The notes under the pieces are model-generated. The model was not told the origin of the DNA and ran no database searches. It saw nothing but the letters and a program-made list of their open reading frames with translations. A DNA stretch of 63,995 bases, counting the filler, from Sanchytrium tribonematis (lineage: Eukaryota), in the NCBI GenBank assembly GCA_018985235.1. It is 8 parts of 8 records of this genome, joined end to end, with 100 filler letters (N's around TTAATTAATTAA, not from the genome) between each part and the next. Parts side by side here need not be neighbours in the genome. Positions count along the whole stretch, not along the records: positions 1 to 8,105 come from JADGIG010000396.1; positions 8,206 to 16,304 come from JADGIG010000397.1; positions 16,405 to 24,494 come from JADGIG010000398.1; positions 24,595 to 32,684 come from JADGIG010000399.1; positions 32,785 to 40,844 come from JADGIG010000400.1; positions 40,945 to 48,985 come from JADGIG010000401.1; positions 49,086 to 57,101 come from JADGIG010000402.1; 1 more part is not named here. One strand, given 5' to 3'. Below, in pieces: positions 321-55,352 of the stretch (its first letter is position 1; every line of letters starts with the position of its first letter). Both the position numbers and the translations under genes were made by a program.

Positions 321-1665
321 CTAGAATTTAAATTGATAATTTCCATTTTGCGTAACATATCTCACCCATTTAATACTTTGATAATTGGATTTCTCAATGA
401 CTTTCAAGAATCTAACCATTAATCCACTAGCAGTGATCATATGCACTTGAAATTCAAGTGTAATTGGCGGTCTAGACCATTGTTTTTGGACGGTATTGCT
501 GCTCAATTCAGCTTCACAACTCAACATCATTTCTGTCTGACCCTGCATTCTTGGGATTCTACATTAGATTTAATTACTTCCATACAATTGCATGCTCTGT
601 AGCCACGAATTTAGCACGGCTACCTGATAACGCATTGGTTAATCCACGAATATCCACGGTATTTGGAGGAACGGGGATTTTGACGACGATGTTTTGACCT
701 GCAAATTTTTCACTAAATAGAGATTTTAAACTGACTTTATATTCTAGTCTAGTAGGGGAACTTGAATATACAGTAGGAGTGACTTTAAATGGAATATTTA
801 TATTTTCAGTGGTTCTATATCTCATCAACTCAAATTCACCATCTGGAGGGACAAAACTAATGGTTCTTTCAGTCTGGAATTTGCCTAATCTGACACATTG
901 ATGAAATTGACAGTCATCTAAAGCGACTGATATTTTCTTTTTGGATTTAGTGCCATCTGTTGGAGAAGATGCCTGTTTATTTTCTGAAATCATCTTGTCA
1001 TTTAATCCGAATTTACATTCTGGTGTTCCTGTCAAATATGCTTTCATCATAATCTTTCCTTGTACCTCATTCTGCAAAACGTTTCCTTTGGCGCCCATCA
1101 AAACATTTACATTTTCAATAACATCAATAAACATCTCATTCTTTCTATATTTAATATCTGGTCGACGCCATGAAGTTGCACCAGTAGCTTGAATGGTAAT
1201 TTTACTAATTTGTTCTGGTTTTTCAAACTTCAAATCTCCAGTGATGTAACTTTTCAAAGTTTCTGGATCACAATTTTGAGGAAACCCAAAGTCAATACAC
1301 TCATCCAACAATTCATATATCAATGCAAAGTGTTGTTTAATAATATCTTCGTTGAATTTACTGAAATAATTGATAGAAATGCCCACAAATCGATATAAAA
1401 ATTCAAAAACCATGGCTACATTCACAGAATCCTTAGAAACAGCTACAATAAACATATCCTCGTGTTTAATATGATAAGTATACAATTGTAAAGGTCCTTG
1501 AGGTGTAGGAAGTGTAATTGGAGTAATTGGAGAATTAACGCGTGGGTTATTAATCACCAGCACCCTAAATCTCTCAGAAACGCCTCTTCTAGTTAATTCT
1601 TGTCTAAATACTTTTGATAATATCAATTCTCCTTTAAATCCATAAATAAAAACACCAGCAATCAT
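321..1665 (-). CDS. APM4: AP-2 adaptor complex mu subunit, 2 exons (intron 559-577)
   Basis: TIQATGATSWRRPDIKYRKNE, DDCQFHQCVRLGKF, SFVPPDGEFELMRY, KWVRY; splicing gives IVWK/IPRMQG; ATG of MIAGVF at 1665. Confidence 0.93.
559..577 (-). other. 19-nt spliceosomal intron GTAATTAAATCTAATGTAG
   Basis: GT-AG; removal joins the two AP-2 mu ORFs in frame. Confidence 0.92.
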
Positions 1666-1712
1666 TTTTAAATTGTTTTGAAATCCAAGCCACAAATCAT
1701 AGTATAAATTTA

Positions 1713-3249
1713 TTAAACCAGTCTACTAGAGCTTCGCACAACCCTCTTTTCTTCTTCTGTCATGTCTCTTTTGAAAGCATCTTTCAAAATAGTCTTTCTA
1801 ATTGTGAAATATATGGTAAATCCAATAAATATGGCTGCAAACATGACTAAAATGGGAGATCTGCTGTCATATCCATCACTATTTGTATTTTTAAGCATTG
1901 GGAATCCAACTACAAACACAGCACCCAAAAAGAATAAAATCAAACAAATGAGCCACGACGTGTAAGGAGAAATGATTTCTGGATGCCATAGTCTGATATA
2001 GATTAATGTACCAATGACCAATGCTGTTGCAATCCAATGTGGGAAAGAAGCAGCATCAATCATGAAACTGAGTCCATTTGCAGAAGGCATGATGATTGTA
2101 AACGCAATCGCAATCACAGAAATCACTAGAGATGAATTATATGGCATCAAGAATCTATTTCTACTGGCTAGAATGTTCTTGAAAGGGAATAAATTTTCTT
2201 TTGCGGAAGCTTCTAAAGATCTTGAAAATACGAATATATTGCAACAAACTGAGATAAACATGGATGATCCAACAAATATTGGAACAATATAAGTACCAGC
2301 AATAGATCCTAAAGTCAATTCAAAGAATTCTGCACCAATTGTTTCTGAATTTTTAATCAAAACTTGAAATGGAATAAATAAATAATAAACAAAGCTAATG
2401 AGGGTGTAAATGACAGCAGACATGGTGATTCCTAAATAAGTAGATTTAGGGAGTGTGATGAGTGGGTCTTTTAAATCAGCCACTAAGCTATTTAAAGAAT
2501 TCCAACTAAATAAGTAAAAATGACCCTAAATAGGCGTAAAACACTTTAATCATGCCATATGCGTGATTACTTGGTTCTGTGGATGTATTTTCGAATGTGA
2601 TGGGTTGAAAATGAACATCTTTTGAAGTAAAAAGACCACAAGCCGCTAAAATGCCAACCAACATCAAACAAAGCGTAAAAAGAAATTTGAAAAGATTTCC
2701 AACATTTTGAAGGACTTCAATGAATCTTCTGCTGAATAAATTGACGAATAAACCAACCACAATCATGATGGTCATTCCGATTTTTATTGTGTAATCTTCG
2801 TCAATCACTCTGTAACTGCTTAATCTCATAATATTGAGAATTGCAACACGTGCTGATGAACAAATCATACCTGGTGCAACGACAAAATTGTTTAATATGC
2901 AGTACATGAAAGGAACTAAGAAATTTGCATGTGGGAAACTAAAAGCGAGATAAACCAATTCTCCCCCATTTTTTGGAAGTAGCAGTCCCCATTCGATATA
3001 ACCAGCAGCACCGCAATAAGTTAGAATGAGACCCATTGCCCAAAGTAATAGAGCCATTCCAGTTGAACCTGCTTGCTCTGCGACCAATGAGGGTGCACTG
3101 AATAAACTGCTACCAACAATCATATTTACAAGCACTGCAGATGCGGACAATACTCCAAAACCGGTATTCATCTCTTTCTTTTGCTTTTTGAGGGCGGGAT
3201 AGAGATTTAATTGACTCTGTCTCATGGAATAGCGTTGTTCTCTTGTCAT
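1713..3249 (-). CDS. APC-superfamily (LAT/Mup1-like) amino acid permease, 2 exons (intron 2506-2524)
   Basis: NMIVGSSLFSAP, EWGLLLPKNGGELVYL, multiple TM segments; splicing gives YAYLG/WNSLNSLVADLKDP, matching the LAT GWN...ELKNP motif. Confidence 0.88.
2506..2524 (-). other. 19-nt intron GTCATTTTTACTTATTTAG
   Basis: GT-AG; restores the conserved GWN motif. Confidence 0.9.
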
Positions 3250-3402
3250 CAAAAATTTGGATTACCCACTTTTGAAGCGCGATCTATTTTATATTGGACG
3301 AATAGAAATTTCATGGGTTTAACGATTTAGAATTGAAAAGATCTTGAAAATTATTTCAAATTGTTTGAAAAATAATCTCATAAAATAAAGTTTATTCCAA
3401 CA

Positions 3403-4095
3403 CTAGTATATTTTTGGCGATAAATAGTCTTTTAGACCTTTTCCATATGAACTAGACCGATTCATGGTCTTTTGAAGTTTGTCGACTGTCTTGTCTTCCA
3501 TCAGCCTCGATTTGGAATTTGTTCGACTTCTTTGTATTGGTGTAGTGGATAAGGATTTGGATTGCTCTAACATTTTACGAGATTGATACTCGTCAAATGA
3601 AGGCAGAGTCTCAATTTCACCTTCTGGTAATATGCTAGTAATCTCAATCCTTCCAGTTGTTTGATCGCGGTTCATTTTTTTGAAAAATACAAAGTCTGGA
3701 TTGATTCTTGCTAAAAGTATGAGCCTCTCGCCTTGAAAATAAATATCTTCCCCTGATATGTCTTGCTTTATGGTAGCTGGTACCACAGAAAGTGGTTTTT
3801 GAGCCTTAGTGTAATTTTTAGGGACGTAACCTTGTTTTTGTGAAAGAGGGCTGTAAACATAATAAAAGAGATCCTTTTCTTCAATAACATGAAGCATCTC
3901 TCCCTCAACAAGCTCAATTTCCTGAGGGTTACCCGGTTTATACCGTTTAGATGCTACCAAGTGTAAAATATATTGCTGCTTTGGTTCTTGAGCGTCCAAG
4001 TCTTTTAGTGAGCGGGAACGCGACTTGTTAATTGAAAACGACCGTGAAAGAGTTGCGGGGAGGTTAGAGAAACTTTTTGACGCTCTAATGGACAT
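3403..4095 (-). CDS. Tandem SH3-SH3 protein, Bem1/Scd2 N-terminus-like (paralog 1)
   Basis: YKPGNPQEIELVEGE...YSPLSQKQGYVPKNY plus a second degenerate SH3; paralog of 4150-4743. Confidence 0.75.
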   Translation of the reverse strand: MSIRASKSFSNLPATLSRSFSINKSRSRSLKDLDAQEPKQQYILHLVASKRYKPGNPQEIELVEGEMLHVIEEKDLFYYVYSPLSQKQGYVPKNYTKAQKPLSVVPATIKQDISGEDIYFQGERLILLARINPDFVFFKKMNRDQTTGRIEITSILPEGEIETLPSFDEYQSRKMLEQSKSLSTTPIQRSRTNSKSRLMEDKTVDKLQKTMNRSSSYGKGLKDYLSPKIY

Positions 4096-4149
4096 TTGTA
4101 AAGATGGGTAATTATTAAAATAAAAGGAGAAGTCGCGTGTCGATATAAT

Positions 4150-4743
4150 TTATTTGGATGGTGAAAGCATTTGTTGGAATGCTTTAAATGAAGTTCTGTT
4201 TCTTTTTTGAGGAACATGTGCATCAGAAGCTTCCGAATTGACCATATCGACATTAGTTCGTCGATTATACTCGTCCATCAGTGGCAGAGACTTGATATCA
4301 CCATCTGCATGTAATAAATCAATTCTAATCCTTCCAATTATCAATTCTCTAGTCATTTTCTTGGCATAAACCCATTTTAAATCGATTTGAGCTAGTAAAA
4401 TGATGCGTTCTCCCTCTTCACATCCCAGTTCATCTGATTCTGCCTCATAATCAGCTTTAATAGTAGCTGGCAGCACTGGTAATGGTTTTTGGATTTGGAC
4501 GTAGTTTTTGGGAACAAATCCGCTCTTTTTCGATGCTGGTGAATAGCAGAAGTAGAATAAATCGCGTTCTTCGCTCACATGAAGTAATTCGTTTAATTCA
4601 AGCGATAGTTCTTGAGGATTTGTTGTTGAATATTTCTGAAGAGATGTCACAGAAAATAGAAATTCTGGAGTTTCGAGGGAAAATGAGTTTGTTGATTTGA
4701 CAGATGTCACGGAAACAGTACTACTAGAGCGTTGTCTTCCCAT
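4150..4743 (-). CDS. Tandem SH3-SH3 protein, Bem1-like (paralog 2)
   Basis: NPQELSLELNE...SPASKKSGFVPKNY; ADYEAESDELGCEEGERI. Confidence 0.78.
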   Translation of the reverse strand: MGRQRSSSTVSVTSVKSTNSFSLETPEFLFSVTSLQKYSTTNPQELSLELNELLHVSEERDLFYFCYSPASKKSGFVPKNYVQIQKPLPVLPATIKADYEAESDELGCEEGERIILLAQIDLKWVYAKKMTRELIIGRIRIDLLHADGDIKSLPLMDEYNRRTNVDMVNSEASDAHVPQKRNRTSFKAFQQMLSPSK

Positions 4744-4840
4744 TTATGATGTAGTGGGTAATTCAATTTCACGATATTTGGGATACTACACGCGCAAGAT
4801 CTTTTACTTTTACAAATTACGCCATTTTATTAAATTAAAA

Positions 4841-5314
4841 TTAAATAATTTCATAGTTGAGAGACATCAAATGCTCAACCCCTACTAAAATTACCATTAT
4901 AATGCATGGATCTATATCTTGCTCGACTTTCAATTGTCTAGTTTGTTTTAGTAGCCCACAAATCTCGTATATTGCAATTTTGATTCCATTTTCTTTCTTA
5001 TTTCCAGCATAAAAGCGTATGCCGCGACTGGATTTATGTGCGAATATCTTAAGTTTACCAAAATCAGCGATGTACTTTGATTTAAATAGAGAATTGATTT
5101 TGTATAAATCGCCAATAAATATATCGTGGTCGAATATTTGTAAATGTTTGCATTTTCCGATATTTCTCAATTTTGCTCCCATTATTCTGCTCTTTTTCTC
5201 TAATAACACCAATTTCGTGGTGTCCCATACAAATGATTTTCGGTTTCCTTTGAAAAATACTTTCTGGTGGACTAATCCAGAGTATTTGACCGTAAACGAA
5301 TTATTATCTTCCAT
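4841..5314 (-). CDS. Uncharacterised 157-aa basic protein, paralog of 6297-6770
   Basis: Start placed at MEDNN by alignment with the paralog; shared VKY.G, F.WD, SLF.SK.IA, RFY.G, RQL.V...DP motifs. Confidence 0.7.
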   Translation of the reverse strand: MEDNNSFTVKYSGLVHQKVFFKGNRKSFVWDTTKLVLLEKKSRIMGAKLRNIGKCKHLQIFDHDIFIGDLYKINSLFKSKYIADFGKLKIFAHKSSRGIRFYAGNKKENGIKIAIYEICGLLKQTRQLKVEQDIDPCIIMVILVGVEHLMSLNYEII

Positions 5315-5493
5315 TAGTTTTAGAGATTTTTGAAAATATCCAATCAGGGTAGACACGTTGGAAAGCATAGTTGTTTGGCACATTCCAACCGAAAGTCATG
5401 CGCTCTAAAAAACCACAATTTCCTTCTAGAGCCAAGTTATGCCAATAAATGCGAGTCATGGTTGTGAAATATTGATAAAAACACATTGATTTA

Positions 5494-6084
5494 TTAACTT
5501 TTTCCTGATTTTGATATTTTATTCAATGATGCCAACGAATTGCTTAATTTATTGCGCTGTTCTTTTGGCTCCTCATTTAATCTCTTCAAAGTCGGGCTAG
5601 GTTGCGCGCTGAATGTTTGGAAATCGCGTTCTAAATATTTTTCAAACGTCGGGAGAGCTTTCAAGTCCTCTCCTTCAATAAAAAGATTTTTAATTAAAAC
5701 GCGTCCATACACGCTTTTGGAAGAAGACTTCTTGCAATACACGTAGTCATCATCGTATTGACTAACAACTAATAATTTATCACCTTTAAAACAGCTCAAA
5801 ACCTCTTCATTAAAAGTACTGGGGTGATCTATTAAAACAATTGCTGCGTACACCGTAAATGGATTTAGTCTTTCTACAAGCATCTTGTATACCTTACCAG
5901 TCTCAGTGGTAGTTGGTGAAAAGCATAAAAGATGGTTTCTTTCTTGCTGTTCTTGTAAAACGTATAAAATTTGATTCTTATAAATGATTAATTCGTCAGT
6001 GTTAAGTGGAATATAGTCTTCAATAACAGTGACTGCGTATAAATACTCCACGGGTCTACTTAAACGAGCTACTACTTTAGACAT
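5494..6084 (-). CDS. Tandem SH3-SH3 protein, Bem1-like (paralog 3, divergent)
   Basis: EDYIPLNTDELIIYKNQ...CFSPTTTETGKV; LSCFKGDKLLV; shares the C-terminal LPTF..Y with paralogs 1 and 2. Confidence 0.7.
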   Translation of the reverse strand: MSKVVARLSRPVEYLYAVTVIEDYIPLNTDELIIYKNQILYVLQEQQERNHLLCFSPTTTETGKVYKMLVERLNPFTVYAAIVLIDHPSTFNEEVLSCFKGDKLLVVSQYDDDYVYCKKSSSKSVYGRVLIKNLFIEGEDLKALPTFEKYLERDFQTFSAQPSPTLKRLNEEPKEQRNKLSNSLASLNKISKSGKS

Positions 6085-6296
6085 TTCAAGCCACGCAACG
6101 TTGCTTTGAAAAACTTGTCTGTGATGAATTGCGTATGAGCATGGATGTCACTAAATACCTCTTTTTATTCTAGATAATCTCTATATTATATTGATTTGGC
6201 AATAACTCCTTCATTGTGTGCAACCATTGGACACTTGCCACAAAATAGAGGGCGCATGCCACGTGTAAATTCCACAGGGGCAGATCAAAAACACGA

Positions 6297-6770
6297 ATGT
6301 CCCGAAAAGATCAAATGATATTTCAAGTGAAATATAATGGCATTATAAAAAGAATCGTGTCTTTTCAGTCTTCCTTTACAGAATTTAGATGGGATAATCT
6401 GAATTTGACACTTAGCACAAAAAGAAATCCAATAATGAATTGCAAAATGGACGCTGGTAGTCACAATGTCAGTTTATTTAAAAAGAATGACTTTATTGGT
6501 GTTGTGAAAGAGTCCAAATCCTTATTTAATAGCAAATTTATTGCAGAATTGAAGAATTTTAAGATTTACATTTACAAGCAAAATGAAAAATTGCGATTTT
6601 ATTTGGGTAAAAAAGTGGACAATATCAATAAAATAGCAGAATATGCCGTGACAGGGTGGTTCCAACCTAAACGACAGTTAGTAGTGGCAGATGAATTAGA
6701 TCCAGCACTCATCATTTTGCTCTTCAACAGCGTAGAATATTTAATATCCAAAAAATACGAGGTTTTATAA
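6297..6770 (+). CDS. Uncharacterised 157-aa protein, paralog of 4841-5314
   Basis: Same length and shared motifs; TAATAAA at the stop. Confidence 0.7.
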   Translation: MSRKDQMIFQVKYNGIIKRIVSFQSSFTEFRWDNLNLTLSTKRNPIMNCKMDAGSHNVSLFKKNDFIGVVKESKSLFNSKFIAELKNFKIYIYKQNEKLRFYLGKKVDNINKIAEYAVTGWFQPKRQLVVADELDPALIILLFNSVEYLISKKYEVL

Positions 6771-6780
6771 TAAATCTAGT

Positions 6781-8105
6781 TTATTCATCTATATTGCTAT
6801 CTGTATTTAATTCCTTGAGCTGCTTTACATTTTTAAATGCAAATTGTTGAAATACTTCGTCGTCAATCACTTTCTCTTTCATTAATTCTTCTATATCCAT
6901 TGTGATTGGCCCAGTCATCTCATTTCTGGCTTCAAAATAATCAACATCCTCTTCTTGTTCTAATTGGGGTATAAATGGAGGTTGTAAATCTCTAATATTC
7001 GACCAATCTCCTTGAAATACTGCGTAAAACACGTCTGATTTCATTTCTTTGATTGTAAATCGATCCTTTGAAGAGACGCGTAATAATCCATTAATGAGAT
7101 TCGTGGCATCCTCTAGGCCTTCTAAATCTATTCTATGTGATAAAATATTATCAAATATTAAATCTGGTGAAGAAGCATGAAATGGAGGGATTCCTTTTAA
7201 AAACTCATAAATACAGCATCCCAATGCCCAATAATCTACAGATTTGTCATTTGAACTACCAGATATCAGTAGTTCAGGGGCTATATAATCTGGAGTGCCA
7301 GAAACCGCCCTTTTTGTTTTATTTTTGAAAATGCTCTTTTTTCTTTGTAATGCTTGTAAATTGATGGTAGAGCATCCGAAATCAGTCAATTTACAATGCC
7401 CTTTTGAGTCTATTAATATGTTATCAGGCTTTATGTCCCTGTGAACAATGCCTTGAGAATGACAGAATTCTAAAGCCAATCCAATTTCTGCAGAGTATTG
7501 GCGACACATGGCAGTGCTAAATGTCCCTAAATTACTTAATAATGATGATAAATCACCTCCATTGAGATATTCCATCACCAAATACTACATAAATAAAAAT
7601 TTACCAAGTAATTTTGAGACTGAAACGCATAAAAGAATTTCACGATATATTCACTTTGGAGAACACTGAGAATGTTTCTTTCTGCTAATACGTGACTGAC
7701 CATGTTTTTAGTGGATATATCTTGCTTCCTCATGATTTTAATGGCGAATAAATCATTTGTGGTTTGTTTTCGAGAAAGAAATACGGATCCAAAGGCGCCT
7801 TTTGAAATGGCTTTAATTAAATGGAATTCACCAATTTCAATATTATTTCTGAAATCCATGCTTTTACGACGTGGTAATTTTAATAAAACTTGATAAAATG
7901 AAGTTAAAAGTGATTTTTTGTGATGGTATTGCTTTTGAAGTTGTTTTAAATAAATTGGATCTAAAAAATGAGAATTCAATAATGGCTGCCATTTTTCTAA
8001 TAATTTTCTTTTATCTGCAAAGAGTATTTTCATTTTATCTGATATTCCTTGTAAAACATCCAATAATTCTTGATTTTCAAATTGTGCTTCACATTCTGTT
8101 AATTT
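6781..8105 (-). CDS. AGC Ser/Thr kinase, Rim15/Greatwall/MAST-like, 5'-partial, intron 7585-7604
   Basis: ISKGAFGSVFL, KNMVSHVLAERNIL, HRDIKPDN, DFG, GTPDYIAPE, AGC C-tail PPFIP; splicing gives QNYL/YLVMEY. Confidence 0.88.
7585..7604 (-). other. 20-nt intron GTAAATTTTTATTTATGTAG
   Basis: GT-AG; restores kinase motif YLYLVMEY. Confidence 0.92.
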
Positions 8106-9167: not shown

Positions 9168-9399
9168 AAAATTGCAAAAATCTCCACTGTTTCAACTTGA
9201 TATTTGCAATCACATTTGAAAATAGTCTACAAAATGGTGGGATATCACGATGTATGGCTCATTCTATGGACTTGTGCTTGAAATGTGAATTGCATCCATT
9301 TTGATTGGGTCAGATAGATGAAGCAAGTCCTTGCAAACACCTGAAGAGCCAATCAACTTTGTAAATGTTCAATTTAACAATTTCCTTCCATTTTACATC

Positions 9400-12300
9400 A
9401 TGTTATTTGCTTTACTTCTTTTTGCTACTAATACGACTTCAAATACAAATACAAATGACAAGTCAGATAAAGTAGATTCCAATTCAAAAGACAAAGTAGA
9501 TCCAAAAAATAAAGACAATGATCCATCAAAGACAGCATCCCCTCCAAATGTAAATACACCCTCTCCTGCACAATCTCCAACAAATCCACCCTCAAAATCA
9601 CCAATTACTGTAGAATCCCCATCTCCCATCCCAAAATACAATCATCCACAGCCAACTATGTCAGAAATCCCAACTGCCACTGAATCACATTTTGCAGTAG
9701 AATCCAATGCACATAGTTCACATTATCCTACAGCCACTGAATCACATCATGCACTAGAATCTGATTCTTTCCAATCTGAAATCCCTATAGCTACTGAATC
9801 ACATCACGCTGTAGAATCCAATTCTATTCATTCAGAAATCCCAATTGCGACTGAATCTAACCCTATTTATTCAGAAATTCCAATTGCCACGGAATCTCAT
9901 TATGCAGTAGAATCCCATCAAACTCAATCAGAACTTCCAATTGCGACAGAATCTCATCCGATTCATTCTGAAATCCCAGTTGCAACAGAGTCTCATCCAA
10001 CTCATTCAGAACTTCCAACTGCTACAGAGTCCAATCCAATTCATTCAGGACTTCCAATTGCTACAGAATCTAACACTGTTCATTCTGAAATCCCAACTGC
10101 GACAGAATCTTATCCAATTCATACAGAGATTCCAATTGCGACAGAATCTCATCCTAGCCATTCAGGAATCCCAGTTGCAACAGAGTCTCATCCAATGTAT
10201 TCGCAAATTCCAATTGCAACAGAATCTCATCCTGCTCATTCACAAATCCCTGTTGCTTCTGAATCTTTTCCAATAATGTCAGAAATTCCAATTTCTCATG
10301 AATCTCATCCAACAGCAACTGAATCACATGGTTTATATGCTCATGAATCCCCTATAGCCACAGAATCACATCCAATTATTTCCCAAATCCCTTCTCCTAC
10401 TCAATCTGATATCCCAATTGCAGTAGAATCTATCACATTAAATAACACGACAGATACGAGTGAATCAAGTGCACATTCAAGTCACACAGTGATAGATGTG
10501 ACACCAGCAGAACCAATTACCAGTCCATCTACCATTCCTAGTGGCAGTTCTACACCCTCTAAACCAACCCAATCCACTTCACAACATTATATATCACACC
10601 ACAAGTCTCATAAAAAGAAGAAGAAGAAGAAACATGTTCAAAAGACATCCAATCAAAATACGGATAAAACAGTGCTTCATCAGAATAAGACTGAAATACA
10701 TTCTAATAATACAAATGTACCGGCAACACCTACACAACCAATGAAACCAGTAGAATCACAACAAGACTCTACACCAGTTACACCAGTTAAACCATCACAG
10801 CCACAAAATACACTAGTTGATCATCATCCTGTTGCACCAGTGGGACCAGCACAACCTTCTTATGTGGCACCAAATACACATGATACACCAACTAATTCAC
10901 AGCAATCACCTGCTCAATCCTCAAATAGTCCACCTAGTGAGCAGCCATCTCATAATCCACCTGTCATTCCACAATCTCCTTCAAAGCCATCTCCTACTGA
11001 TTCACAACCATCTCAACCATCTGATCATCCACCTGCATCACATCAATCTGATGAACCACCTTCACAAGTATTACCAGGTCAGAATTCAACTGATTTGCCT
11101 GCACAACCATCCTATGTACCAGGAATGCCTCCAATTGCACAGCCGAGTGAGAATCCATTGAAGAATTCACCTGGTCCACAATTGCCACCTGTGCCACCAA
11201 GTACAGATGGACCACAACAAGCTGGACCATCTGATTTACCACCAATGCCACCAGCAGGACCATCACAAGCACCACCTGCTCCACAGCAGCCTGCTCCACC
11301 AGCACAGGCTTCTGATTTACCACCTGCTCCACTAGTACATTATTCTGATTTACCACCAATGCCACAGCAGCCTGCTCCTCAATCTGGACCATCCCCTGCT
11401 CCACCAGCACAGGCTTCTGATTTACCTGCTGCTCCACCTGCTGGACCATCTCCGACTGGACCGTCTGATCTGCCTCCTGCTCCCCCAAGTGGACCATCTC
11501 CTCCTGCTCCAGCACAATCTTCTGATTTACCACCAATGCCACAGCAGCCTGCTCCTCAACCTGGACCATCTGATTTGCCTCCTGCTCCGCAAACGGGACC
11601 ATCGGGTCTACCTCTTGTTCCGCCTGCTGGACCATCTCCGACTGGACCGTCTGATCTACCTCCTGCTCCTCAAACGGGACCATCGGATCTACCTCCTGTT
11701 CTGCCTGCTGGACCGTCTGATTTACCTCCTGCTCCGCAAACGGGACCGTCTGATTTGCCTCCTGCTCCTCAACAGCCTGCTTCTCCAGCCGGACCATCTC
11801 CAAATCCACAAGAGCCTCAAGTAGGTGGACCATCTTCAGTTCCTCAGCAACCAGCTCCTCCATCACAGCCATCCGGATTACCTCCTGTTCCACCAACTGG
11901 ACCTCCTCCTGCTCAATCATCAGGTACTCTTCCAAATCCTCAACAACCAGCTCCTCCAAGCGGACCATCTGATTTACCACCTCAACAACCAGCTCCTCAA
12001 ACTCAACCTTCCGATTTACCTCCTGCTCCTCCAAGCGGACCATCTGATTTACCATCCCAACAACCACTTCCTCCCCAAAGTGGGCCTTCTGATTTGCCAC
12101 CGGCTCCTCAACAACCAGCTTCTCCAAGTGGGCCTTCTGATTTGCCACCGGCTCCTCAACAACCGGCTCCCCAAAGTGGACCATCTGATTTGCCACAGCA
12201 ACCACCTGCGCCTCAAACACAGCCATCAAATTTACCTCCAGTACCTGGACCATCTGACCTGCCTCCTGCGCCTCCATCTGCAAATCCCCAACAGCCAGCT

Positions 12301-13698
12301 CCTCCAGCAAAATCATCTGATTTGCCTCCTGTTCCTCCAACGGGACCATCTGATCAACCTCAGACTCCTCAGCAGCCTGCTCCTCCATCCGATTTGCCTC
12401 CAACTCCTCAGCAACCTGTTCCTCCAACGGGACCATCTGATTTGCCACCTGCTCCTCCAGCTGGTCCGTCTCCAAATCCACAAGAGCCTCAAACGGGCGG
12501 ATCTCCAGCTCCTCAGCAACCTGCTCCTCCTACACAATCTTCTGATTTGCCACCTACCAATCCACAATCCCAAAATCCATCTATTCCAGCACAACCATCT
12601 TACATCCCTCCAAATCCTCAAAATAGTCAAGTATTACCCCCTCCCACCAATTCAAATACTCCTGATCAACCACAATCTTCTCCTACTAATGTAGATCAGC
12701 AGCCAGCACAGCCAGTACAACAGCCAGTACAACAGCAACCAGTACAACAGCCAGCGCAACAGCCTGATATTCCACCTGTATTACCAAATAATCCAGATAA
12801 TTCTCAAAATAATACTGCACCTCCACAACAACCAGCACAATCTGGTGACCAACCAACACCATCTGGTGACAATTTAGATACATCAGTCATCCCTGGTTCA
12901 GCTGATGTTCCTCCACCAGCAGATGCATCTCCAGTAGATCCACAAATTCCAACAAGTCCCACAGACAATTCTATTGATAATAGCCAATCCCCAACACTCT
13001 TCCAATCACCCAATGTCATTCAAACACAACCATCTGATGTTCAAGATGGTCAAGATGGTCAGGATGGTGTTAATTTACCTGGAATTATTCCAATTCGTAA
13101 AGGAAATACACCATCAGATAATCCAATTGAAAATCCAACCAATAATCCAGTAGACAATCCAGTGGATAATCCAGCAATATCACCCAACAATTCACCATTA
13201 GATACACTCAATCTACCCACGAATAACACATTTCAATCCACCAATGAGAATGCACCCAATCCAGATGTGACATTAAATACATTCAAGAAAACAGCATCAA
13301 ATACACCATCCAACAATGTGATTACACCTGATATTCAACCCATGTCACCAGATGATCAAATATTTCAAATTCAAGATCATTTAGCCAATCAAATCTCACC
13401 TGTTTCATATCCTAAAATGCCACCTAGATCGGATATTAATACAATTATACCAGATCCAAGTAGGCCATTTGGATTACCAGGTGAAGATTTGAATCCATCT
13501 TATTTGTTTAGTGGATTACAGCCTAAATTGGAGAATCCATTAATTCCACATACATTGGAAGATGCAAATTTGTTGTTTTTTAAAAATAGTAATGAGTCAT
13601 TTCGACAAGTACAAGCACAGGCATATAGTAGTGCCACTAGAGTATCTGAATATACAATGGGATGGATATTTATGATGTTATTGATTGAAATAAATTAA
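9400..13698 (+). CDS. Large Pro/Ser/Gln-rich repetitive secreted, probably GPI-anchored surface protein (about 1432 aa)
   Basis: Signal MLFALLLFA; 13-aa EIPIATESHPIHS repeats; His/Lys tract; GPSDLPPAPQQP repeats; hydrophobic C-terminus after SS. Confidence 0.85.
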   Translation: MLFALLLFATNTTSNTNTNDKSDKVDSNSKDKVDPKNKDNDPSKTASPPNVNTPSPAQSPTNPPSKSPITVESPSPIPKYNHPQPTMSEIPTATESHFAVESNAHSSHYPTATESHHALESDSFQSEIPIATESHHAVESNSIHSEIPIATESNPIYSEIPIATESHYAVESHQTQSELPIATESHPIHSEIPVATESHPTHSELPTATESNPIHSGLPIATESNTVHSEIPTATESYPIHTEIPIATESHPSHSGIPVATESHPMYSQIPIATESHPAHSQIPVASESFPIMSEIPISHESHPTATESHGLYAHESPIATESHPIISQIPSPTQSDIPIAVESITLNNTTDTSESSAHSSHTVIDVTPAEPITSPSTIPSGSSTPSKPTQSTSQHYISHHKSHKKKKKKKHVQKTSNQNTDKTVLHQNKTEIHSNNTNVPATPTQPMKPVESQQDSTPVTPVKPSQPQNTLVDHHPVAPVGPAQPSYVAPNTHDTPTNSQQSPAQSSNSPPSEQPSHNPPVIPQSPSKPSPTDSQPSQPSDHPPASHQSDEPPSQVLPGQNSTDLPAQPSYVPGMPPIAQPSENPLKNSPGPQLPPVPPSTDGPQQAGPSDLPPMPPAGPSQAPPAPQQPAPPAQASDLPPAPLVHYSDLPPMPQQPAPQSGPSPAPPAQASDLPAAPPAGPSPTGPSDLPPAPPSGPSPPAPAQSSDLPPMPQQPAPQPGPSDLPPAPQTGPSGLPLVPPAGPSPTGPSDLPPAPQTGPSDLPPVLPAGPSDLPPAPQTGPSDLPPAPQQPASPAGPSPNPQEPQVGGPSSVPQQPAPPSQPSGLPPVPPTGPPPAQSSGTLPNPQQPAPPSGPSDLPPQQPAPQTQPSDLPPAPPSGPSDLPSQQPLPPQSGPSDLPPAPQQPASPSGPSDLPPAPQQPAPQSGPSDLPQQPPAPQTQPSNLPPVPGPSDLPPAPPSANPQQPAPPAKSSDLPPVPPTGPSDQPQTPQQPAPPSDLPPTPQQPVPPTGPSDLPPAPPAGPSPNPQEPQTGGSPAPQQPAPPTQSSDLPPTNPQSQNPSIPAQPSYIPPNPQNSQVLPPPTNSNTPDQPQSSPTNVDQQPAQPVQQPVQQQPVQQPAQQPDIPPVLPNNPDNSQNNTAPPQQPAQSGDQPTPSGDNLDTSVIPGSADVPPPADASPVDPQIPTSPTDNSIDNSQSPTLFQSPNVIQTQPSDVQDGQDGQDGVNLPGIIPIRKGNTPSDNPIENPTNNPVDNPVDNPAISPNNSPLDTLNLPTNNTFQSTNENAPNPDVTLNTFKKTASNTPSNNVITPDIQPMSPDDQIFQIQDHLANQISPVSYPKMPPRSDINTIIPDPSRPFGLPGEDLNPSYLFSGLQPKLENPLIPHTLEDANLLFFKNSNESFRQVQAQAYSSATRVSEYTMGWIFMMLLIEIN
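9661..10430 (+). repeat. Coding tandem repeat, about 39-bp unit (P[IVT]ATES motif)
   Basis: Recurrent ccaattgc(a/g/t)acagaatc units. Confidence 0.85.
11220..12560 (+). repeat. Coding imperfect repeat encoding GPSDLPPAP/QQPAP units
   Basis: Recurrent ggaccatctgattt(a/g)cc. Confidence 0.85.
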
Positions 13699-13724: not shown

Positions 13725-14905
13725 TTATTGAGTGAAATTGGATATACTCAAACGAGATTGCTTACGAACTGGTACTTTGATGACGAGACCTAGTAAAATG
13801 CAGTTGATCATCAATTTAAAGACGATGGACCAACTTAAATTGACATTTTTTGAAACTACTGTTAATTTGGATGCATTTGCACCTAGGACTGTGGCATGGG
13901 TAGAGATGGTTGACATAGATGTAGTGACATTGAATGATGTCAATTGAGTGGATTGCGTGAAGAATCGACGTGTAGGGACTAAATGAGTGAGGAATTACTT
14001 GGTTTGTCTGTGGTATCACTTTCCAATTCAGAAAGGATTGAATCAAATGGGGTCACTTGTAAGGTGGAAGGAGACGTTGAGCTACTTTTTAAAGTCATTT
14101 TGACAGCAGTACTTTCAATTGTTGCCAAAAATGCTGAAAAAGATGTTACAGGTGGAATTGATGTCGTTGCAATCGTAGATGCCAATGTGCTTTGAATTGT
14201 AGTGGTCAAAGTTGTCTCGATTTGTAATGCAGCTGGTGGAGCAGGAACCAAGTAGAATTTCTTACACATTGTCAAATTTGGGACATTTGTGTCATTTAAC
14301 AAGGCATTAGATGATAAATCACACTTAGCAAGCGTCAATTGAGTAGTATCATTGATGGATACACTGGATATTTGATTATTAGCAATCAAAAGTGTAGTTG
14401 GCTTAAATAAATTCAAACTTCCAGTCAAAAAAGTGTTTGGAATTGCCCAATCCAATCGTTGTAGTGATAATATTGTCAATGTAGGTGGAAATATTGGCAT
14501 ATCACCACTTAAAAAGCAATTATCAATGGTAATTTCAGTCATATTCACTGGAATAGGTGGAAATTTGCCAAATATTGTATGATCTGATTTAATTCTCAAA
14601 GTCACCAAGGCTGGTGGCAACCCCATTTTGCCAAATGTACCATTTAAGTGATAACCTGCTGATGAGAAATCAATAAATCTAAATGAGATGCCGGTGACTT
14701 GTCCTGCTGTATTACAAGTGGCGTAATCAGAATTGCAACAATTTTTGGTAATTTTTTCAAACACATTTGGAGCAATTACATCTGCATTCATGGCTTTCGC
14801 GAAATCAACAACATAGTCACAATCCGATGGCGTACTTGATACTGCTTGTTTCAATTGATTACTAGTACATCCTGTGATATTTGCCAATGAATTTGCATCT
14901 AAGTA
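13725..14905 (-). pseudogene. LRR single-pass membrane protein, 5' end cut off by the pogo insertion; intron 13979-13998
   Basis: DC..V.DF...NCC cap, LRR-like repeats, CDLSSN, S/T-rich stalk; C-terminal TM homologous to 17660-19657; no upstream ATG before the transposon end. Confidence 0.65.
13979..13998 (-). other. 20-nt intron GTAATTCCTCACTCATTTAG
   Basis: GT-AG; joins ORF 13979-14887 in frame to 13725-13943, adding the family TM tail. Confidence 0.8.
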
Positions 14906-15039: not shown

Positions 15040-16304
15040 TTATTCATTGGCACAATTTAAACAGATATCACTTCTACTCATACATCCAATACCAAATCCA
15101 TGTACAGGTTGAAGACATTTATCACAGACATGATTTTGAGTCGATAACATTTCAACGTTACAAAATACACAAACTTTATCAGTCAATTCACTTGGAGAAG
15201 CTCTATCTAAAATTTCATATGCTCGCGCTTCACATTCACTTCTTGTCTTTGTCAATGGGTCAACAGAAGTTCTGGTTCTTAAAGTAGCACGTTCTGCATC
15301 AGGATCAAAATTATACAGATTAACATGAAAAGTTTCATCGCCTAATTCATCAGCTTCAAACTGCTTTGATTTGCTAACAATTTCGGTAATGCAAACATTT
15401 GCTAATGATTCATAATAAGCTGCAATAAAACCTTCACCTAATCTTTCATGTTTTGCAAGATAAGTATCTTCTGGCCCCCAATCCGTTGTATATTCAGTTG
15501 GTAAACCACCTGACTCTAGCGCTTTGTTGATTTGAGTTTGTGAAAAACTGCTGAGTATTTCCTTAATCCATCCCGTCATTAGTTCAATTGAAAACTTTTT
15601 CAACTTGCCATTTGACCAATTGTCGTTAAAATACATATATTCCTCAATTTTATCACTCATTCGACTCTTAAATGACCGGTTAATTGATACATCTAACGTT
15701 TGTAAATAAGCAGTGCAATTTGCAGGAATCATTACTTGCTGAAAATTCTACATTATAATCAAATACGTATTTGACTAGCTGTTTTTTAATATCATCAGAT
15801 TTATGTACCGGACACGCATCCCAAACTAAAATTTTACTATCAGTTTTTGTTTTTGTTTTAAAAAAGGAGTCTTTTGATTGGTCGGGGCACGTGGAAATCA
15901 AATGAATCCATTTTTTCGCAATTGATGAAGTAATCCATGCCTTTTCAGAGTATGTATAGGCAACACCATTTTTGAATTTGAGTTCTTTTTCTTCGTTGCC
16001 TTTGTAGATTAAAAGAGGAGTACCAAAAGTGCCATCCGATTTAATAGAAAGTAGACAGGTGATTCTATCAGAATCAAATCCGGTGCCTTTTACAACAATA
16101 CTTGATCGGCCAGTTATATCCACCGTAGTGGAATGTGAAGACGTAAAATAAATTGCAGTTTCATCTGCTGCGAAGATGTTTTTTAAATCTTGCTTTTTAT
16201 CACTTATTTCAAAGAAGTTTGATAATGTATAGTCCAAATAACGATAATAAAGAACTGATCGCTTCACAATTTCTTCATCGTTTAGTGTTTGACGTGAACT
16301 AGCT
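15040..16304 (-). CDS. pogo-family DD35D transposase with C-terminal Cys-rich finger, 5'-partial, intron 15748-15766
   Basis: ADET, KAWIT, LVWDAC.VH, IPANCTAYLQTLDV; C-terminal CxxC..CxxC..H..C..CxxC. Confidence 0.85.
15748..15766 (-). other. 19-nt intron GTATTTGATTATAATGTAG
   Basis: GT-AG; removal restores the frame and gives exactly 35 residues between catalytic D2 and D3. Confidence 0.85.
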
Positions 16305-40944: not shown

Positions 40945-43032
40945 CATGGTGGGCGTCTTGGATAAACGTAGATCTTTTAGATGTCAATTCTCTAATTATT
41001 TGTTATTGGCTGCGTCTATCGTGCTTGTGAGCATTATTGGATTTAAATTCTTGGCTGCATTACAATTAGGCAGCAGAAGAGAACCAGAAGAACATGATAA
41101 ATTTGTGATTTTACAAATGCCATGTTACACAGAAGGAGAAGAGAATTTAAAAAGGACGATTGAATCCCTAGCTGCTTTGAGATATGACGATAAACGTAAA
41201 TTGTTATTTCTCATGTGTGATGGCATGATTGTGGGTAGCGGCAATGACAGACCCACCCCGCGCATTGTTTTGGATATTTTAGGTGTAGATCCCAATTTGG
41301 ATCCAGAACCCCTTTCTTTTCAAAGTATTGGTGAAGGCATGAAGCAGCACAATATGGGTAAAGTTTATACTGGATTATACGAAGTGCAAGGCCATTTAGT
41401 CCCATTTATCGTGATTGTCAAGATTGGTAAACCAGATGAAAGAATGAAACCAGGAAATAGAGGTAAACGTGACTCGCAAATGATTTTAATGCGATTTCTC
41501 AACAAGGTGTATTACGACACGCCAATGAGTCCATTAGAATTAGAAATGTATCACCAAATCAAGAATGTGATTGGTGTTTCACCCTCATTTTATGAATATG
41601 TGCTCATGATTGATGCAGATACGATTGCGATTAATGAATCACTGAATAGAATGATTTCTGCCATGATTCATGATACGAAAATAGCAGGATTATGCGGAGA
41701 AACCAAATTATCCAATGAGAAACAATCTTGGGCCACCATGATTCAGGTGTATGAATATTACATTTCTCATCACATGGCCAAGGCATTTGAGTCATTATTT
41801 GGATCTGTGACGTGTTTACCAGGTTGTTTCTGCATGTACAGATTGCGCAGTCCATTAAAGAATTCTCCCTTGTTAATTGCCAATCAAATCATCAAGGATT
41901 ACGGGGATTGCAACGTGGATACACTGCATAAAAAGAATTTATTGAGTTTGGGAGAAGACAGATATTTGACCACAATCATGTTGAAACATTTCCCATATCA
42001 TAAAATGGTATTTATTCAAGATGCACATTGTACGACGTATGCACCAGATCGATGGAGTGTTTTATTGTCACAACGACGTAGATGGATTAATTCTACTGTC
42101 CATAATTTGGCAGAATTGGTGAATTTGCCTCAATTGTGTGGATTCTGTTGTTTCAGTATGCGATTTGTGGTATTTATTGATTTATTTGCCACTTTGGTGC
42201 AACCTGCTGCTGTCTGTTACTTGGTGTACTTGTTATATGTCGTGATTGATGCACAAATCAAGGGCATCGCATCCCCAGTCCCATTGATCTCATTGGTGTT
42301 ATTGGGTGCTATTTATGGATTACAAGCATTAATCTTCATTATTAAACGAGAATGGCAGCATCTGGGATGGATGATTGTCTATATTTTAGCCATTCCCATT
42401 TTCTCATTCTTTCTGCCATTATACAGTTTTTGGCATTTTGATGATTTTACATGGGGATCTACTAGAATTGTTGTTGGTGAAGGAGGCAAGAAACAGATTT
42501 ATACACAAGATGTTGAGAAGTTTAATTTAGATGATATTCCACATAAACGATTTAGGTAAATTGTAATTGATTTAGTGAATATGAGCAAGAATTGTGGGAA
42601 TTAGAGAGTAGTCAACAGGGTAAATCAGAGATTAGTAATGAATTTACAGAGAATCGACGTCATTCTATGCTGAGTGGGTTACAGAATAGTGCTTTGAATC
42701 AATCTGGCATCCAATCTGGCATCCAATCTGGAATGCACTCTGGAATGAGCCATACAGGCATGATTCACAATGCTGGACCCGTCAATCAACAAATGGGTTA
42801 TTCCAATCAAGTGAGTGGGTTATCGAGTGCGCCATCTCAAGGCTATTTATTTGGAATGATGCCCACTGATAATGAGATTTATATGGAAATAGAACGCATT
42901 ATTAATAGTGCGGATTTAATGACAATTACCAAGAAGCAAGTGAGAGATGAATTAAGTCGACGATTTGGAGTAGATTTGAGTCATAAAAAAGATATGATTA
43001 ATAAGAGTATTGACCAGATTTTAGGAGTTTAA
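40945..43032 (+). CDS. Class V/VII chitin synthase, 5'-partial, with C-terminal DEK-C domain; intron 42556-42575
   Basis: [58 protein letters not shown] (DEK-C). Confidence 0.95.
42556..42575 (+). other. 20-nt intron GTAAATTGTAATTGATTTAG
   Basis: GT-AG; gives [15 protein letters not shown]. Confidence 0.92.
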
Positions 43033-52723: not shown

Positions 52724-52734
52724 ACCCAAAATGT

Positions 52735-55352
52735 TTATTTATCATGCATGCTTTTGATAACGCTTGAACTCATTTCCCAATTATCAGGAACCGTCACACT
52801 GGAGGTGTGCCAAATATTTTTAGAGTAATCAGAAATAGATCTGTCAGATGAGAAAAATCCTGCTCTTGCGGTGTTCAAAATACTCATTTTCAGCCATTTC
52901 TTTTGATCTTTATACGCATTTTCCGCGCGTTTCAAACATTCTAGATCTATATAAATAATAAATTACATAATGGGAAATCTTTACAAACCAAATAAAAATC
53001 CCCTGCAACAGTCAAGGTATCCAACAAAGGATTGAAGATATTTGGATCGCCAAATTCTCCTTGTCGAATTGAATCTAAGACATCTTGTAATTCTTTACCA
53101 ATATCCACTTTGTAGAATTTGTTATTGTGTCGAATGTCTTCAACTTCAGGAGTCAAAGTTCCGAAAGTAAAAATATTATCTTGTTTTACCTCGTCTCTGA
53201 TTTCAATATTTGCACCGTCAACCGTTCCTACAATAATTCCGCCATTTGCAACAAATTTCATATTGCTCGTTCCACTAGCCTCGGTACCTGCGGTAGAAAT
53301 ATGTTGAGAGATGTCACTTGCAGGAATAATGATCTCAGCATTACTGACATTGTAGTCTGGAATAAATACTACCTTCAAAACATCAGCCACTCTATCATCC
53401 TTGTTGACAACTTCTGCCACACTATTTATCAATTTGATGACTAGTTTTGCCATGTAATATCCAGGAGCTGCTTTGCCTCCAAAAATATAAACATGTGGCT
53501 GCTCTTTTTTCCTCAACTCTGGGGCCATATCGCGAAGAGTATTGTAATGGTGAATGATTGCAAGAATGTTCATAAATTGACGTTTATATTCGTGAATTCG
53601 TTTAACTTGAATATCGAAAATAGCCTCAGGCATGACACGAATTCCAGTTTCTTTCTGGATATACAAAGCCAATTTTGCCTTGTTCTCAAATTTGATTTCT
53701 GCCCACTTAGTCTGAAATTTTGGATCCTCTGCAAATTTTTCCAGCACTTTCAATTTTGATAATTCTGTGATCCAAGAATCATCACCAACCTTTTCCGTGA
53801 TCAAATCTGCCAAAGCGGGATTACTCTGATTGATCCATCTTCTTGGTGTGACACCATTCGTAACATTTGTGAATTTGCTTTCGCCAAAAAAGTCTGAAAA
53901 CTCTTTAAATATTTTGTTCTTGACTAACTCGCTATGTAAAGCTGCAACACCATTGACTTTATGGCTCCCAATGATTGCCAAGTGAGCCATTCTAACATGT
54001 TGTGGCATACCTTCTTCAATAATTGACATCTTGGTTAGAATTTCTCTATTGTCGGGAAACTTCTTTTCAACTTGTTGTAAGAAAAACAAATTAATATCAA
54101 AAATAATTTGTAAATGTCTTGGTAACAAATTATTCATCAACGGAACAGACCATTTTTCTAAGGCTTCTGGCAAGACAGTGTGGTTTGTAAAGCTGAAAGT
54201 TTGAGTAACTATACTCCAACTTAGGTCCCAGGATAATTGCTCAATATCTACCAAGCGTCTCATAAGCTCGGCGATACCCAAGGTAGGGTGAGTGTCATTG
54301 AGTTGTATTGCAACTTGAGATGGGAATTCTTCCCAAGGTCGATTTGTTTTCTTAAATCTTCGTACAATATCTTTCAAAGTAGCACACACAAAGAAATACT
54401 GTTGCTTGAGTCTTAATTCCTTTCCAAGCATATGATTATCGTTAGGATATAAAACACTGGTAATAGATTCAGCACGTTGTTGTTCTCTAACAGACTGTTC
54501 ATAATCACCAGCGTTGAAAGATTGCAGATCGAATTGGCGATTTGGCTTAGAACTCCAAAGTCTAATGTTCAGACAGGTCTTATTTTTGTATCCTGGAATG
54601 GGTACATCATAAGCAACTGCTTGAATAGTTTCACCACCTTCCCATTTATATCTTACCTTGCCATCCTTTTCCTCAATTTTGGTAACGTGGCCGTAAAATC
54701 TAACTTCATAAGAGACATCAAATCTGGCAACTTCCCATGGATTGCTTACATTTAGCCAAAAGTCAGGAAACTCACATTGGTATCCTTGAATAATTTTCTG
54801 CTTGAAAATACCATAATTGTATCGTAGCCCATATCCCCAAGCTGGCATTTCCATACATGCCAATGAATCCATAAAGCATGCAGCCAATCTTCCTAAACCA
54901 CCATTTCCTAATGCCGCATCTCTTTCTTCATTTATCAAATCTTCCAAATTAAATCCCAAGGCTTTCAAGGCATTTTCGTAGTTTTCCCTCAATCCCAAAT
55001 TGATCAGAGCATTATCCAAGCTTCGACCAAGTAAAAACTCTAAAGACAAGTAGTAGATTCGCTTTGGATCTTTTAATGTGTGAAATTGCTGAGTTTCATT
55101 CCAAATTTCAATTAATCTGTCGCGAATGGAATATGCAGCAGAGTAGTAAGCCGCTAAAGCATCCATATTAAAAGCTGTTCTTGCCATGGTGGAACTTGCG
55201 TGTTTGACAATAGATTTTTCTATAACCTCAATATCGTTTTCATCAACCTTTGAATATTTCTCCCACAACTCCAGGGTCTTCTTATTCATCAGCGACAAAT
55301 AATTTTTTGGCAAACCCGTAAAATTGCGATTTAAGACTTGATCGTTGGACAT
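52735..55352 (-). CDS. GPH1: Glycogen phosphorylase, intron 52947-52966
   Basis: LGNGGLGRLAAC, QLNDTHP, KRIHEYKRQ, EASGTSNMK; splicing gives DFPL/YLECLKRAENAY. Confidence 0.96.
52947..52966 (-). other. 20-nt intron GTAATTTATTATTTATATAG
   Basis: GT-AG; restores the DF..Y motif. Confidence 0.92.

What the first reader, a model, noticed from the sequence alone, without database searches (positions are those of the whole stretch)
559..52966. Genome-wide class of 19-20 nt spliceosomal introns with a fused branch-point/3' splice site (TNATDTAG)
Seen: seven introns on four contigs (559-577, 2506-2524, 7585-7604, 13979-13998, 15748-15766, 42556-42575, 52947-52966) are 19 or 20 nt and GT...TAG. Each restores the reading frame, and six restore a recognisable conserved motif. 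All seven have T at -8, A at -6, T at -5 and TAG at the end, with no room for a polypyrimidine tract. No longer intron was found. Known: introns this small are described mainly from Stentor (15-16 nt, branch A 6 nt from the end) and chlorarachniophyte nucleomorphs (18-21 nt); typical fungal introns are much longer. Inference: an independently miniaturised splicing system in a fungus-like nuclear genome, with a lariat loop of only about 14-15 nt. Standard gene predictors would miss these introns. 3n-length introns without stops would be invisible to this approach.
Basis: partly seen in the sequence, partly recalled or inferred. Interest (0 to 1): 0.9.

Follow-up and report, generated by a model that had tools for sequence, protein, structure and literature searches.

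The report
Tiny 19-20-base introns in sanchytrid fungi
Seven genes of what is likely a sanchytrid (a fungus group that parasitises algae) carry 19- or 20-base inserts, one of them exactly where many other organisms have an ordinary intron; they are likely cut out by the spliceosome, which would make them shorter than any fungal intron found in the papers searched.

Summary
Observation confirmed. All seven inserts are 19 or 20 nt, consensus GT[AC][AT][AT]T...TNATDTAG. The closest named relative is the sanchytrid Amoeboradix gromovi (81% on AP-2 mu). Homology fixes the boundaries: best of 40, 16, 12 and 40 frame-restoring alternatives at four sites; the kinase exons abut at consecutive residues. 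The AP-2 mu insert sits at an old intron position: GT at the same base in 30 of 77 aligned loci, 37-107 nt where resolved. Relatives break at the same sites in three genes; two transposase relatives fit 19 nt best. A DNA run carries five inserts without indels. No RNA was available, so splicing, the branch A at -6 and 'genome-wide' are inferred. The fused branch point/3' site is already known in a fungus (Yarrowia), and tiny introns in Stentor, mikrocytids and nucleomorphs. New are the lineage and the length, below the 22-nt minimum of E. cuniculi, plus loss of G at +5. Ten paper searches found no account of sanchytrid introns; their published proteomes were called without introns. The scan had no earlier sanchytrid note.

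The parts
559..577 (-). 19-nt phase-2 intron in the AP-2 mu (clathrin adaptor) gene; exons 1665-578 and 558-321
   Evidence: Spliced product gap-free at the junction in 111 of 115 homologs (1 gap, 3 not covering). Best of 40 alternatives. GT at the same base in 30 of 77 aligned loci. 4 of 4 close relatives end at the same residue. No indel in X1.
2506..2524 (-). 19-nt phase-2 intron in an APC/LAT-type amino acid permease gene; exons 3249-2525 and 2505-1713
   Evidence: Pfam AA_permease_2 positions 1-203 and 201-416 on the two exons. 4 of 4 orthologs (70-74%) read straight through this site and match the spliced product. Best of 12 alternatives, two of them also 19 nt. No indel in X1.
7585..7604 (-). 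20-nt phase-0 intron in a Greatwall/Rim15-like AGC kinase gene; exon 1 cut by the contig end (8105-7605), exon 2 7584-6781
   Evidence: Exon 1 ends at ROCK1 (2esm_A) residue 149 and exon 2 starts at 150. No indel in X1.
13979..13998 (-). 20-nt phase-1 intron in a lineage-specific LRR-family gene; exon 2 (13978-13725) supplies the family's C-terminal hydrophobic segment and basic tail
   Evidence: Weakest case. Exon 1 (E 1e-6) and exon 2 (E 5e-5, pairwise) both match the uninterrupted paralog at 17630-19657. Boundaries rest on the motif. X1 contig bridges it with 0 differences.
15748..15766 (-). 19-nt phase-0 intron in a pogo-like DDE_1 transposase gene; exon 1 cut by the contig end, exon 2 15747-15040
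   Evidence: Best of 40 alternatives against 49 homologs. The three closest relatives (49-56%) break at the same residue; back-translation of two of their tails fits 19 nt best. X1 bridges it without gaps.
42556..42575 (+). 20-nt phase-2 intron in a chitin synthase gene with a C-terminal DEK_C domain; exons 40945-42555 and 42576-43032
   Evidence: Chitin_synth_2 (profile 2-521 of 527) ends at the intron and DEK_C lies in exon 2. Frame restored.
52947..52966 (-). 20-nt phase-1 intron in the glycogen phosphorylase gene; exons 55352-52967 and 52946-52735
   Evidence: Gap-free in 117 of 118 homologs; the exception is Rozella allomycis P0202, with a 9-residue insertion at this site. Best of 16 alternatives. 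Relative P0122/P0241 breaks at the same site; A. gromovi P0213 is uninterrupted.

Best explanation
These are likely ordinary major-spliceosome (U2-type) introns, at least some of them ancient, that have shrunk to a probable lower limit of 19-20 nt in what is likely a sanchytrid fungus. Shown: the inserts, their exact ends, their shared signals, the old position of the AP-2 mu intron, and matching breaks in relatives. Inferred mechanism: U1 and then U6 read the 5' end GTAATT-like signal, which keeps T+6 but has lost the usual G+5. U2 pairs with T-N-A-T (the yUnAy / CTRAY branch consensus, recalled) and bulges the A at -6, giving a lariat loop of 14-15 nt. The 3' site is the first AG, a fixed 2 nt behind the branch motif, so it is set by distance and needs no pyrimidine tract or scanning. 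Six bases for the 5' signal plus eight for the 3' signal leave a linker of only 5-6 nt. Deletion bias in a small parasite genome would have eroded the introns down to that floor, while most introns were lost (about 0.14 per kb of coding sequence here).
For: Boundary tests, best of 40/16/12/40. Gap-free junctions in 111 of 115 and 117 of 118 homologs. Kinase exons abut at 149|150. The same AP-2 mu position has GT in 30 of 77 aligned loci; 26 clean calls are 37-107 nt, and G+5 is in 27 of 27 examined. Rozella has an in-frame 9-aa insertion at the phosphorylase site. Relatives break at the same residue in AP-2 mu (4 of 4), phosphorylase (one ENA cluster) and the transposase (3 of the 4 hits at 49% or more; the fourth ends earlier). 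19 nt is the best-fitting length for P0248 and P0249. Permease orthologs lack this insert precisely (4 of 4) but break 20 residues later, where the window is continuous. A. gromovi is annotated with Prp8, Brr2, U1-70K, SF3B1, U2AF65/35, SF1, Prp22, Prp17 and Isy1. Same branch geometry in Stentor and Y. lipolytica.
Against: No transcript evidence. The branch A is inferred from a motif in 7 introns, not mapped. Only 7 introns in 64 kb were seen, so longer classes elsewhere are not excluded. A. gromovi lacks the phosphorylase and permease introns, and no relative's DNA was seen, so intron length in named sanchytrids was not measured. The two relatives that fit 19 nt are unnamed, and the fit for P0249 is modest (7.3 against 2.7). 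The 13979 and 42556 boundaries have no cross-junction homolog test. X1 may be the window's own sample. No snRNA gene lies in the window.
Confidence: 0.88

Rival explanations
1. The introns are real, but 19-20 nt is only the short end or one mode of a wider length range, or they are spliced poorly and mostly retained, as in microsporidia.
For: Sample of seven. E. cuniculi short introns are spliced at under 20% on average and mikrocytid introns at 37-63%.
Against: 7 of 7 fall in two lengths. No strict-motif hit at 15-18 or 21-24 nt. The interrupted genes are conserved and their downstream exons are intact.
Confidence: 0.2
2. Assembly indels or amplification artefacts that happen to look like introns.
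For: The genome is a fragmented assembly; the published sanchytrid genomes came from whole-genome amplification.
Against: X1 contigs at depth 28-211 carry five of the inserts with no gap. Other organisms break at the same residues. The AP-2 mu site is a conserved intron position.
Confidence: 0.01
3. Dead genes carrying transposon footprints or frameshifting insertions, or recoding during translation.
For: One insert lies in a transposase gene; other mobile elements in the window are broken.
Against: Exact removal leaves no missing or extra residue in conserved cores. Ends are GT/AG with a shared branch-like motif. Flanks differ between sites and show no shared target duplication.
Confidence: 0.02
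4. Non-spliceosomal removal, like the short Ire1-cut HAC1-type or tRNA-type introns (recalled).
For: The size is similar (recalled). One of seven junction regions folds better than shuffles (z -2.3).
Against: No shared structure: z from -2.3 to +1.2 over seven. GT-AG ends and positional identity with ordinary spliceosomal introns.
Confidence: 0.02

Closest known systems
Stentor coeruleus 15-16 nt introns (PMC9505925, passages)
   Same: GT-AG, AU-rich, proposed branch A six bases from the end; its commonest intron has the same 5' and 3' pattern and no G at +5.
   Different: A ciliate; 4 nt shorter; about 8,800 introns against a sparse set here; annotated genome-wide.
Chlorarachniophyte nucleomorph introns (18-21 nt) and mikrocytid introns (16-17 nt) (PMC10245619, section 7)
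   Same: Narrow size range at the lower limit, in reduced or parasitic genomes.
   Different: Rhizarian or endosymbiont genomes. Mikrocytids keep only 17-19 spliceosomal proteins and no U1 snRNA was identified, whereas A. gromovi keeps U1-70K, U2AF and SF1. Mikrocytid introns avoid metabolic and transporter genes; two of these seven are in such genes.
Encephalitozoon cuniculi introns (PMC3629993 and PMC6349667 passages; PMC2483917 passages)
   Same: Holomycotan parasite, few short GT-AG introns, TAAY-type branch motif.
   Different: 22-76 nt (median 32 in the older set) with a strong GTAAGT donor and strict CTAAYTT. Here 19-20 nt, no G+5, and a weak branch motif (TNAT).
Yarrowia lipolytica fused branch point/3' site (PMC2483917, passages)
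   Same: A fungus with no 3' pyrimidine tract and a fixed BP-AG distance of 2 nt, which puts the branch A at -6.
   Different: Long introns (median 204 nt) with a strong ACTAAC motif.
Myxobolid and dicyemid ultra-short introns (PMC13644364, part 1 of 3)
   Same: Parasitic opisthokonts; ancestral positions kept while length shrank; reduced splice motifs.
   Different: Animals; medians of 22-27 nt.
Entamoeba atypical donor sites with a coevolved U1 snRNA (bioRxiv 10.1101/2022.06.08.495308, abstract)
   Same: Precedent for a changed 5' splice signal matched by a changed snRNA.
   Different: No snRNA was available to test here.

Membership tests
U2-type spliceosomal introns | GT...AG ends whose removal restores the conserved reading frame exactly | tested here: met
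   7 of 7 restore the frame; exact by homology at five sites.
U2-type spliceosomal introns | Positional orthology with ordinary spliceosomal introns | tested here: met
   AP-2 mu: 30 of 77 aligned loci. Phosphorylase: Rozella insertion, inferred retained intron. Not tested for the other five.
U2-type spliceosomal introns | Branch-site consensus with a conserved A near the 3' end | tested here: met
   T-8, A-6, T-5 in 7 of 7. A motif only; use as branch not mapped.
U2-type spliceosomal introns | Canonical 5' signal with G at +5 | tested here: not met
   0 of 7 here against 27 of 27 orthologous AP-2 mu introns. A common, not a universal, feature: Stentor's commonest intron lacks it too.
U2-type spliceosomal introns | Removal from transcripts through a lariat | not testable with these tools
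   No RNA run to lay.
U2-type spliceosomal introns | A major spliceosome in the organism | tested here: inconclusive
   Core proteins are annotated in the relative A. gromovi; the window's own genome and snRNAs were not available.
U12-type introns | RTATCCTT donor and CCTTAAC branch motif (recalled) | tested here: not met
   Position table of the seven shows neither.
Ultra-short intron genomes (Stentor, nucleomorph, mikrocytid type) | Nearly all introns of the genome in a narrow range of 21 nt or less | tested here: inconclusive
   7 of 7 in 64 kb; no genome-wide data.
Ire1/tRNA-endonuclease introns | Conserved stem-loops at both splice sites | tested here: not met
   No shared fold over the seven junction regions.
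Sanchytriomycota (taxon) | Proteins closest to a named sanchytrid; GC near 35% | tested here: met
   AP-2 mu 81% and permease 70% to A. gromovi, on one contig there too; other fungi 55% or less on AP-2 mu. GC 31-38% outside one repeat gene against about 35% published. No tree was built; species not determined.

The most novel reading that the evidence does not exclude
Sanchytrids as a phylum have shrunk essentially all their nuclear introns to 19-20 nt, the shortest intron class in fungi and in opisthokonts. It is an independent convergence on the Stentor design (GTAATT donor without G+5, branch A at -6), run by a spliceosome that keeps U1, U2AF and SF1 but has altered U1/U6 pairing and may have dropped Slu7 and Prp18.
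Probability: 0.6. Interest if true: 0.82.

Novelty: new variant of a known kind. Interest (0 to 1): 0.72.

Why it matters
The minimum size of a spliceosomal intron, and what the spliceosome must change to handle one, are open questions so far studied in ciliates, rhizarians and nucleomorphs. A case inside fungi, at positions orthologous to 40-100 nt introns of other fungi, allows an intron-by-intron and protein-by-protein comparison with yeast-type spliceosomes whose structures are known. It also gives testable predictions: changed U1 5' end or U6 ACAGA box, and dispensable second-step factors. Practically, the published sanchytrid proteomes were called without introns, so proteins are truncated or split (AP-2 mu, the permease, probably SF1), which can bias gene-loss and domain counts for the phylum.

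Tried and rejected
No whole genome held. No RNA holder listed; this says nothing either way. Metagenome scan found no close relative's DNA (best 54-65%). De novo codon-model intron scan: mis-trained on wrong-strand ORFs and noisy, discarded. One search picked wrong donors for several loci and was redone; there L056 and L076 were unresolved, and L040 and L064 were miscalls that I dropped, leaving 26. No intron-less transposase copy appeared in X1 at 80% likeness (contigs show presence only). Candidates rejected: 26138-26157 and 59486-59510 (antisense to ORFs); 38770-38788 (no motif; a deletion-type frameshift in a retroelement); 2526-2544 and 2488-2506 (lower scores, contradicted by orthologs). 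Thirteen looser 3n-length matches were listed, four inside long ORFs; none fits the strict motif and none was aligned. Rfam and ARAGORN found nothing. PDB gave no chitin synthase covering the junction. Slu7, Prp18 and U1C were not found by name or KEGG number in the held part of Supplementary Data 1 (KEGG numbers recalled, file cut, half the proteome unannotated): a lead only.
Full report
Observation. The window is eight contigs of about 8 kb joined by N spacers. All seven segments are present, 19 nt (three) or 20 nt (four), GT...TAG, and each removal opens a frame that read-through closes. Position counts over the seven: +3 A 6 / C 1, +4 A 6 / T 1, +5 T 5 / A 2, +6 T 7; -8 T 7, -6 A 7, -5 T 7, -3 T 7; no internal AG; GC 20%. 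Only 50 of 6365 AGs in the window have the T.AT.TAG context. The strict motif at 19-20 nt occurs 8 times against 0.32 expected; this is partly circular, since the motif comes from the seven.

Organism. The AP-2 mu ORF has four relatives at 80-82% (three unnamed ENA proteins and Amoeboradix gromovi); all other fungi are at 55% or less. The neighbouring permease has four relatives at 70-74%, the A. gromovi one on the same contig as its AP-2 mu. The spliced phosphorylase ends in a tail shared with A. gromovi P0213. GC is 31-38% outside one repeat gene, against about 35% for sanchytrids (PMC8371127, passages). I infer a sanchytrid; no tree was built, the species was not determined, and contigs 2 and 6 were not compared with named relatives.

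Boundaries. I scored every frame-restoring GT/GC..AG pair near a site against homologs. The stated intron was best of 40 (AP-2 mu, 115 homologs), 16 (phosphorylase, 117), 12 (permease, 4 orthologs) and 40 (transposase, the 49 of 150 hits of 300 aa or more). Spliced AP-2 mu is gap-free within six residues of the junction in 111 of 115 homologs (1 gap, 3 not covering) and phosphorylase in 117 of 118. Kinase exon 1 ends at ROCK1 residue 149 and exon 2 starts at 150. For the LRR-family gene both exons match the uninterrupted paralog at 17630-19657. For chitin synthase the Pfam domain ends at the insert and DEK_C follows. These last two have no cross-junction test.

Ancestry. Of 80 AP-2 mu loci, 77 aligned at the site; 30 have GT at exactly the same base. 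The other 47 are uninterrupted, many probably transcripts (inference). Twenty-eight were resolved automatically and two miscalls dropped; the 26 left are 37-107 nt. Their exon sequences look both animal-type and fungal-type (my reading; the loci carry no taxon). G+5 is present in 27 of 27 examined (25 distinct), against 0 of 7 in the window. At the phosphorylase site the only homolog with a gap is Rozella allomycis, with 9 extra residues, likely a retained 27-nt intron.

Relatives. All four close AP-2 mu relatives end at the same residue as the window's ORF. One ENA phosphorylase cluster breaks at the same site, while A. gromovi is uninterrupted. All four permease orthologs lack the window's insert precisely, but stop about 20 residues later where the window is continuous, which points to differential loss or gain. 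Three transposase relatives at 49-56% break at the same residue. Back-translating two of their tails with GT..AG required gives 19 nt as the best length (16.6 against -6.3; 7.3 against 2.7), and the same test returns 19 for the window. The second read-through codon has T in the middle in all three, so +5 is T there too (read). These relatives are unnamed and no DNA of theirs was seen.

Artefact test. The one listed run, X1 (DNA contigs), covers 1-8100 with 27 single-letter differences and no indel, and bridges 13979-13998 and 15748-15766 without gaps. It may be the source sample, so it rules out assembly indels rather than giving independent support.

Mechanism (inferred). T-N-A-T matches the general branch consensus WCTRAYN (PMC2483917, passages) in weak form and puts the branch A at intron position 14 or 15. 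The acceptor is the first AG, two bases behind the motif, the same spacing as in Y. lipolytica and the same A position as proposed for Stentor (PMC9505925, passages). Signals take 14 of 19-20 bases. That T+6 is kept while G+5 is lost predicts a matching change in U1 or U6, as reported for U1 in Entamoeba (bioRxiv 10.1101/2022.06.08.495308, abstract). A. gromovi is annotated with Prp8, SNRNP40, Snu13, U2AF35, U1-70K, SF3B1, U2AF65, SF1, Brr2, Prp22, Prp17 and Isy1. Slu7 and Prp18 were not found in the held, cut file; in yeast they are dispensable at short branch-to-AG distance (recalled). Six host-gene introns in about 42 kb of coding sequence (34 genes, rough bounds) give 0.14 per kb, against 1.3 in Allomyces and 2.5 in Rozella (PMC8476143, passages). 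Junction regions share no fold, against endonuclease-type splicing.

Known and new. Introns of 21 nt or less are described from heterotrich ciliates (15-16), mikrocytids (16-17) and nucleomorphs (18-21) (PMC10245619, section 7). The shortest opisthokont figures I saw are E. cuniculi 22-76 nt (PMC3629993, passage; about 25 nt in PMC6349667, part 1 of 4) and myxobolid medians of 22-27 nt (PMC13644364, part 1 of 3). Fused branch/3' sites are also known from Giardia, Trichomonas and Spironucleus (PMC6679479, passages). The sanchytrid genome paper has no 'splic' and has 'intron' only in its reference list, and predicted proteins with TransDecoder on contigs (section 18). Its main supplementary PDF and one spreadsheet were unreadable, and one PDF had no text. 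PMC10459994 and PMC13393502 (passages) say nothing on sanchytrid introns. Ten searches listed no paper on them; most hits were seen as listings only, and subscription journals are largely outside the library. The scan's own notes hold nothing on this genome or on sanchytrids.

Verdict. Real introns, probability about 0.9; branch at -6 about 0.8; dominant class genome-wide about 0.7. It is a new, apparently unreported case of a known kind of extreme, the first at 20 nt or less in fungi that I could find. Whether it arose independently of microsporidian and Rozella shortening rests on the recalled placement of sanchytrids beside Blastocladiomycota and was not tested here.

Noticed in passing
window 1713-3249 and P0244-P0247: Reciprocal intron pattern in the permease: the window has an intron that four orthologs lack, and they break about 20 codons later where the window is continuous. 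Recent intron loss or gain among sanchytrids.
   Followed up: partly
P0202/P0242 (Rozella allomycis phosphorylase): The public protein model carries a 9-residue insertion at the same site as the window's intron, likely an unannotated 27-nt in-frame intron.
   Followed up: partly
window 36251-39977 (+): LTR retrotransposon pol (protease, RT, RNase H, integrase) with what looks like a PHD-finger remnant between RNase H and integrase, broken by a frameshift near 38760; the finger is my reading of the cysteine pattern.
   Followed up: no
window 49441-50706 (+): Multi-RRM protein whose layout recalls Prp24/SART3, the U4/U6 recycling factor; Pfam shows RRMs only.
   Followed up: no
window 24595-26873 (-): 'Swiss Army Knife'-type RNA repair protein (2H phosphoesterase, phosphatase, kinase, RNA ligase domains), cut by the contig end.
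   Followed up: no
window 3403-6770: Three divergent SH3-domain genes in tandem, interleaved with two similar unknown ORFs (4841-5395, 6249-6770).
   Followed up: no
window 9322-13698 (+): 1458-codon Pro/Gln/Ser-rich repeat ORF with a likely signal peptide and hydrophobic C-terminus; no intron.
   Followed up: no
PMC8371127 Supplementary Data 1, NODE_116 p11/p12: A. gromovi SF1/BBP is listed as two adjacent ORFs, as expected if an unannotated intron splits it.
   Followed up: no
L057, L060, L063, L067, L069: Unnamed fungal-type AP-2 mu loci with 41-44 nt introns whose branch-like motif lies 3 nt before the AG (A at -7), an intermediate geometry.
   Followed up: no
window 44449-48962 (+): Degraded non-LTR retroelement (RT and RNase H matched) with stops and a frameshift, none intron-like.
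   Followed up: no
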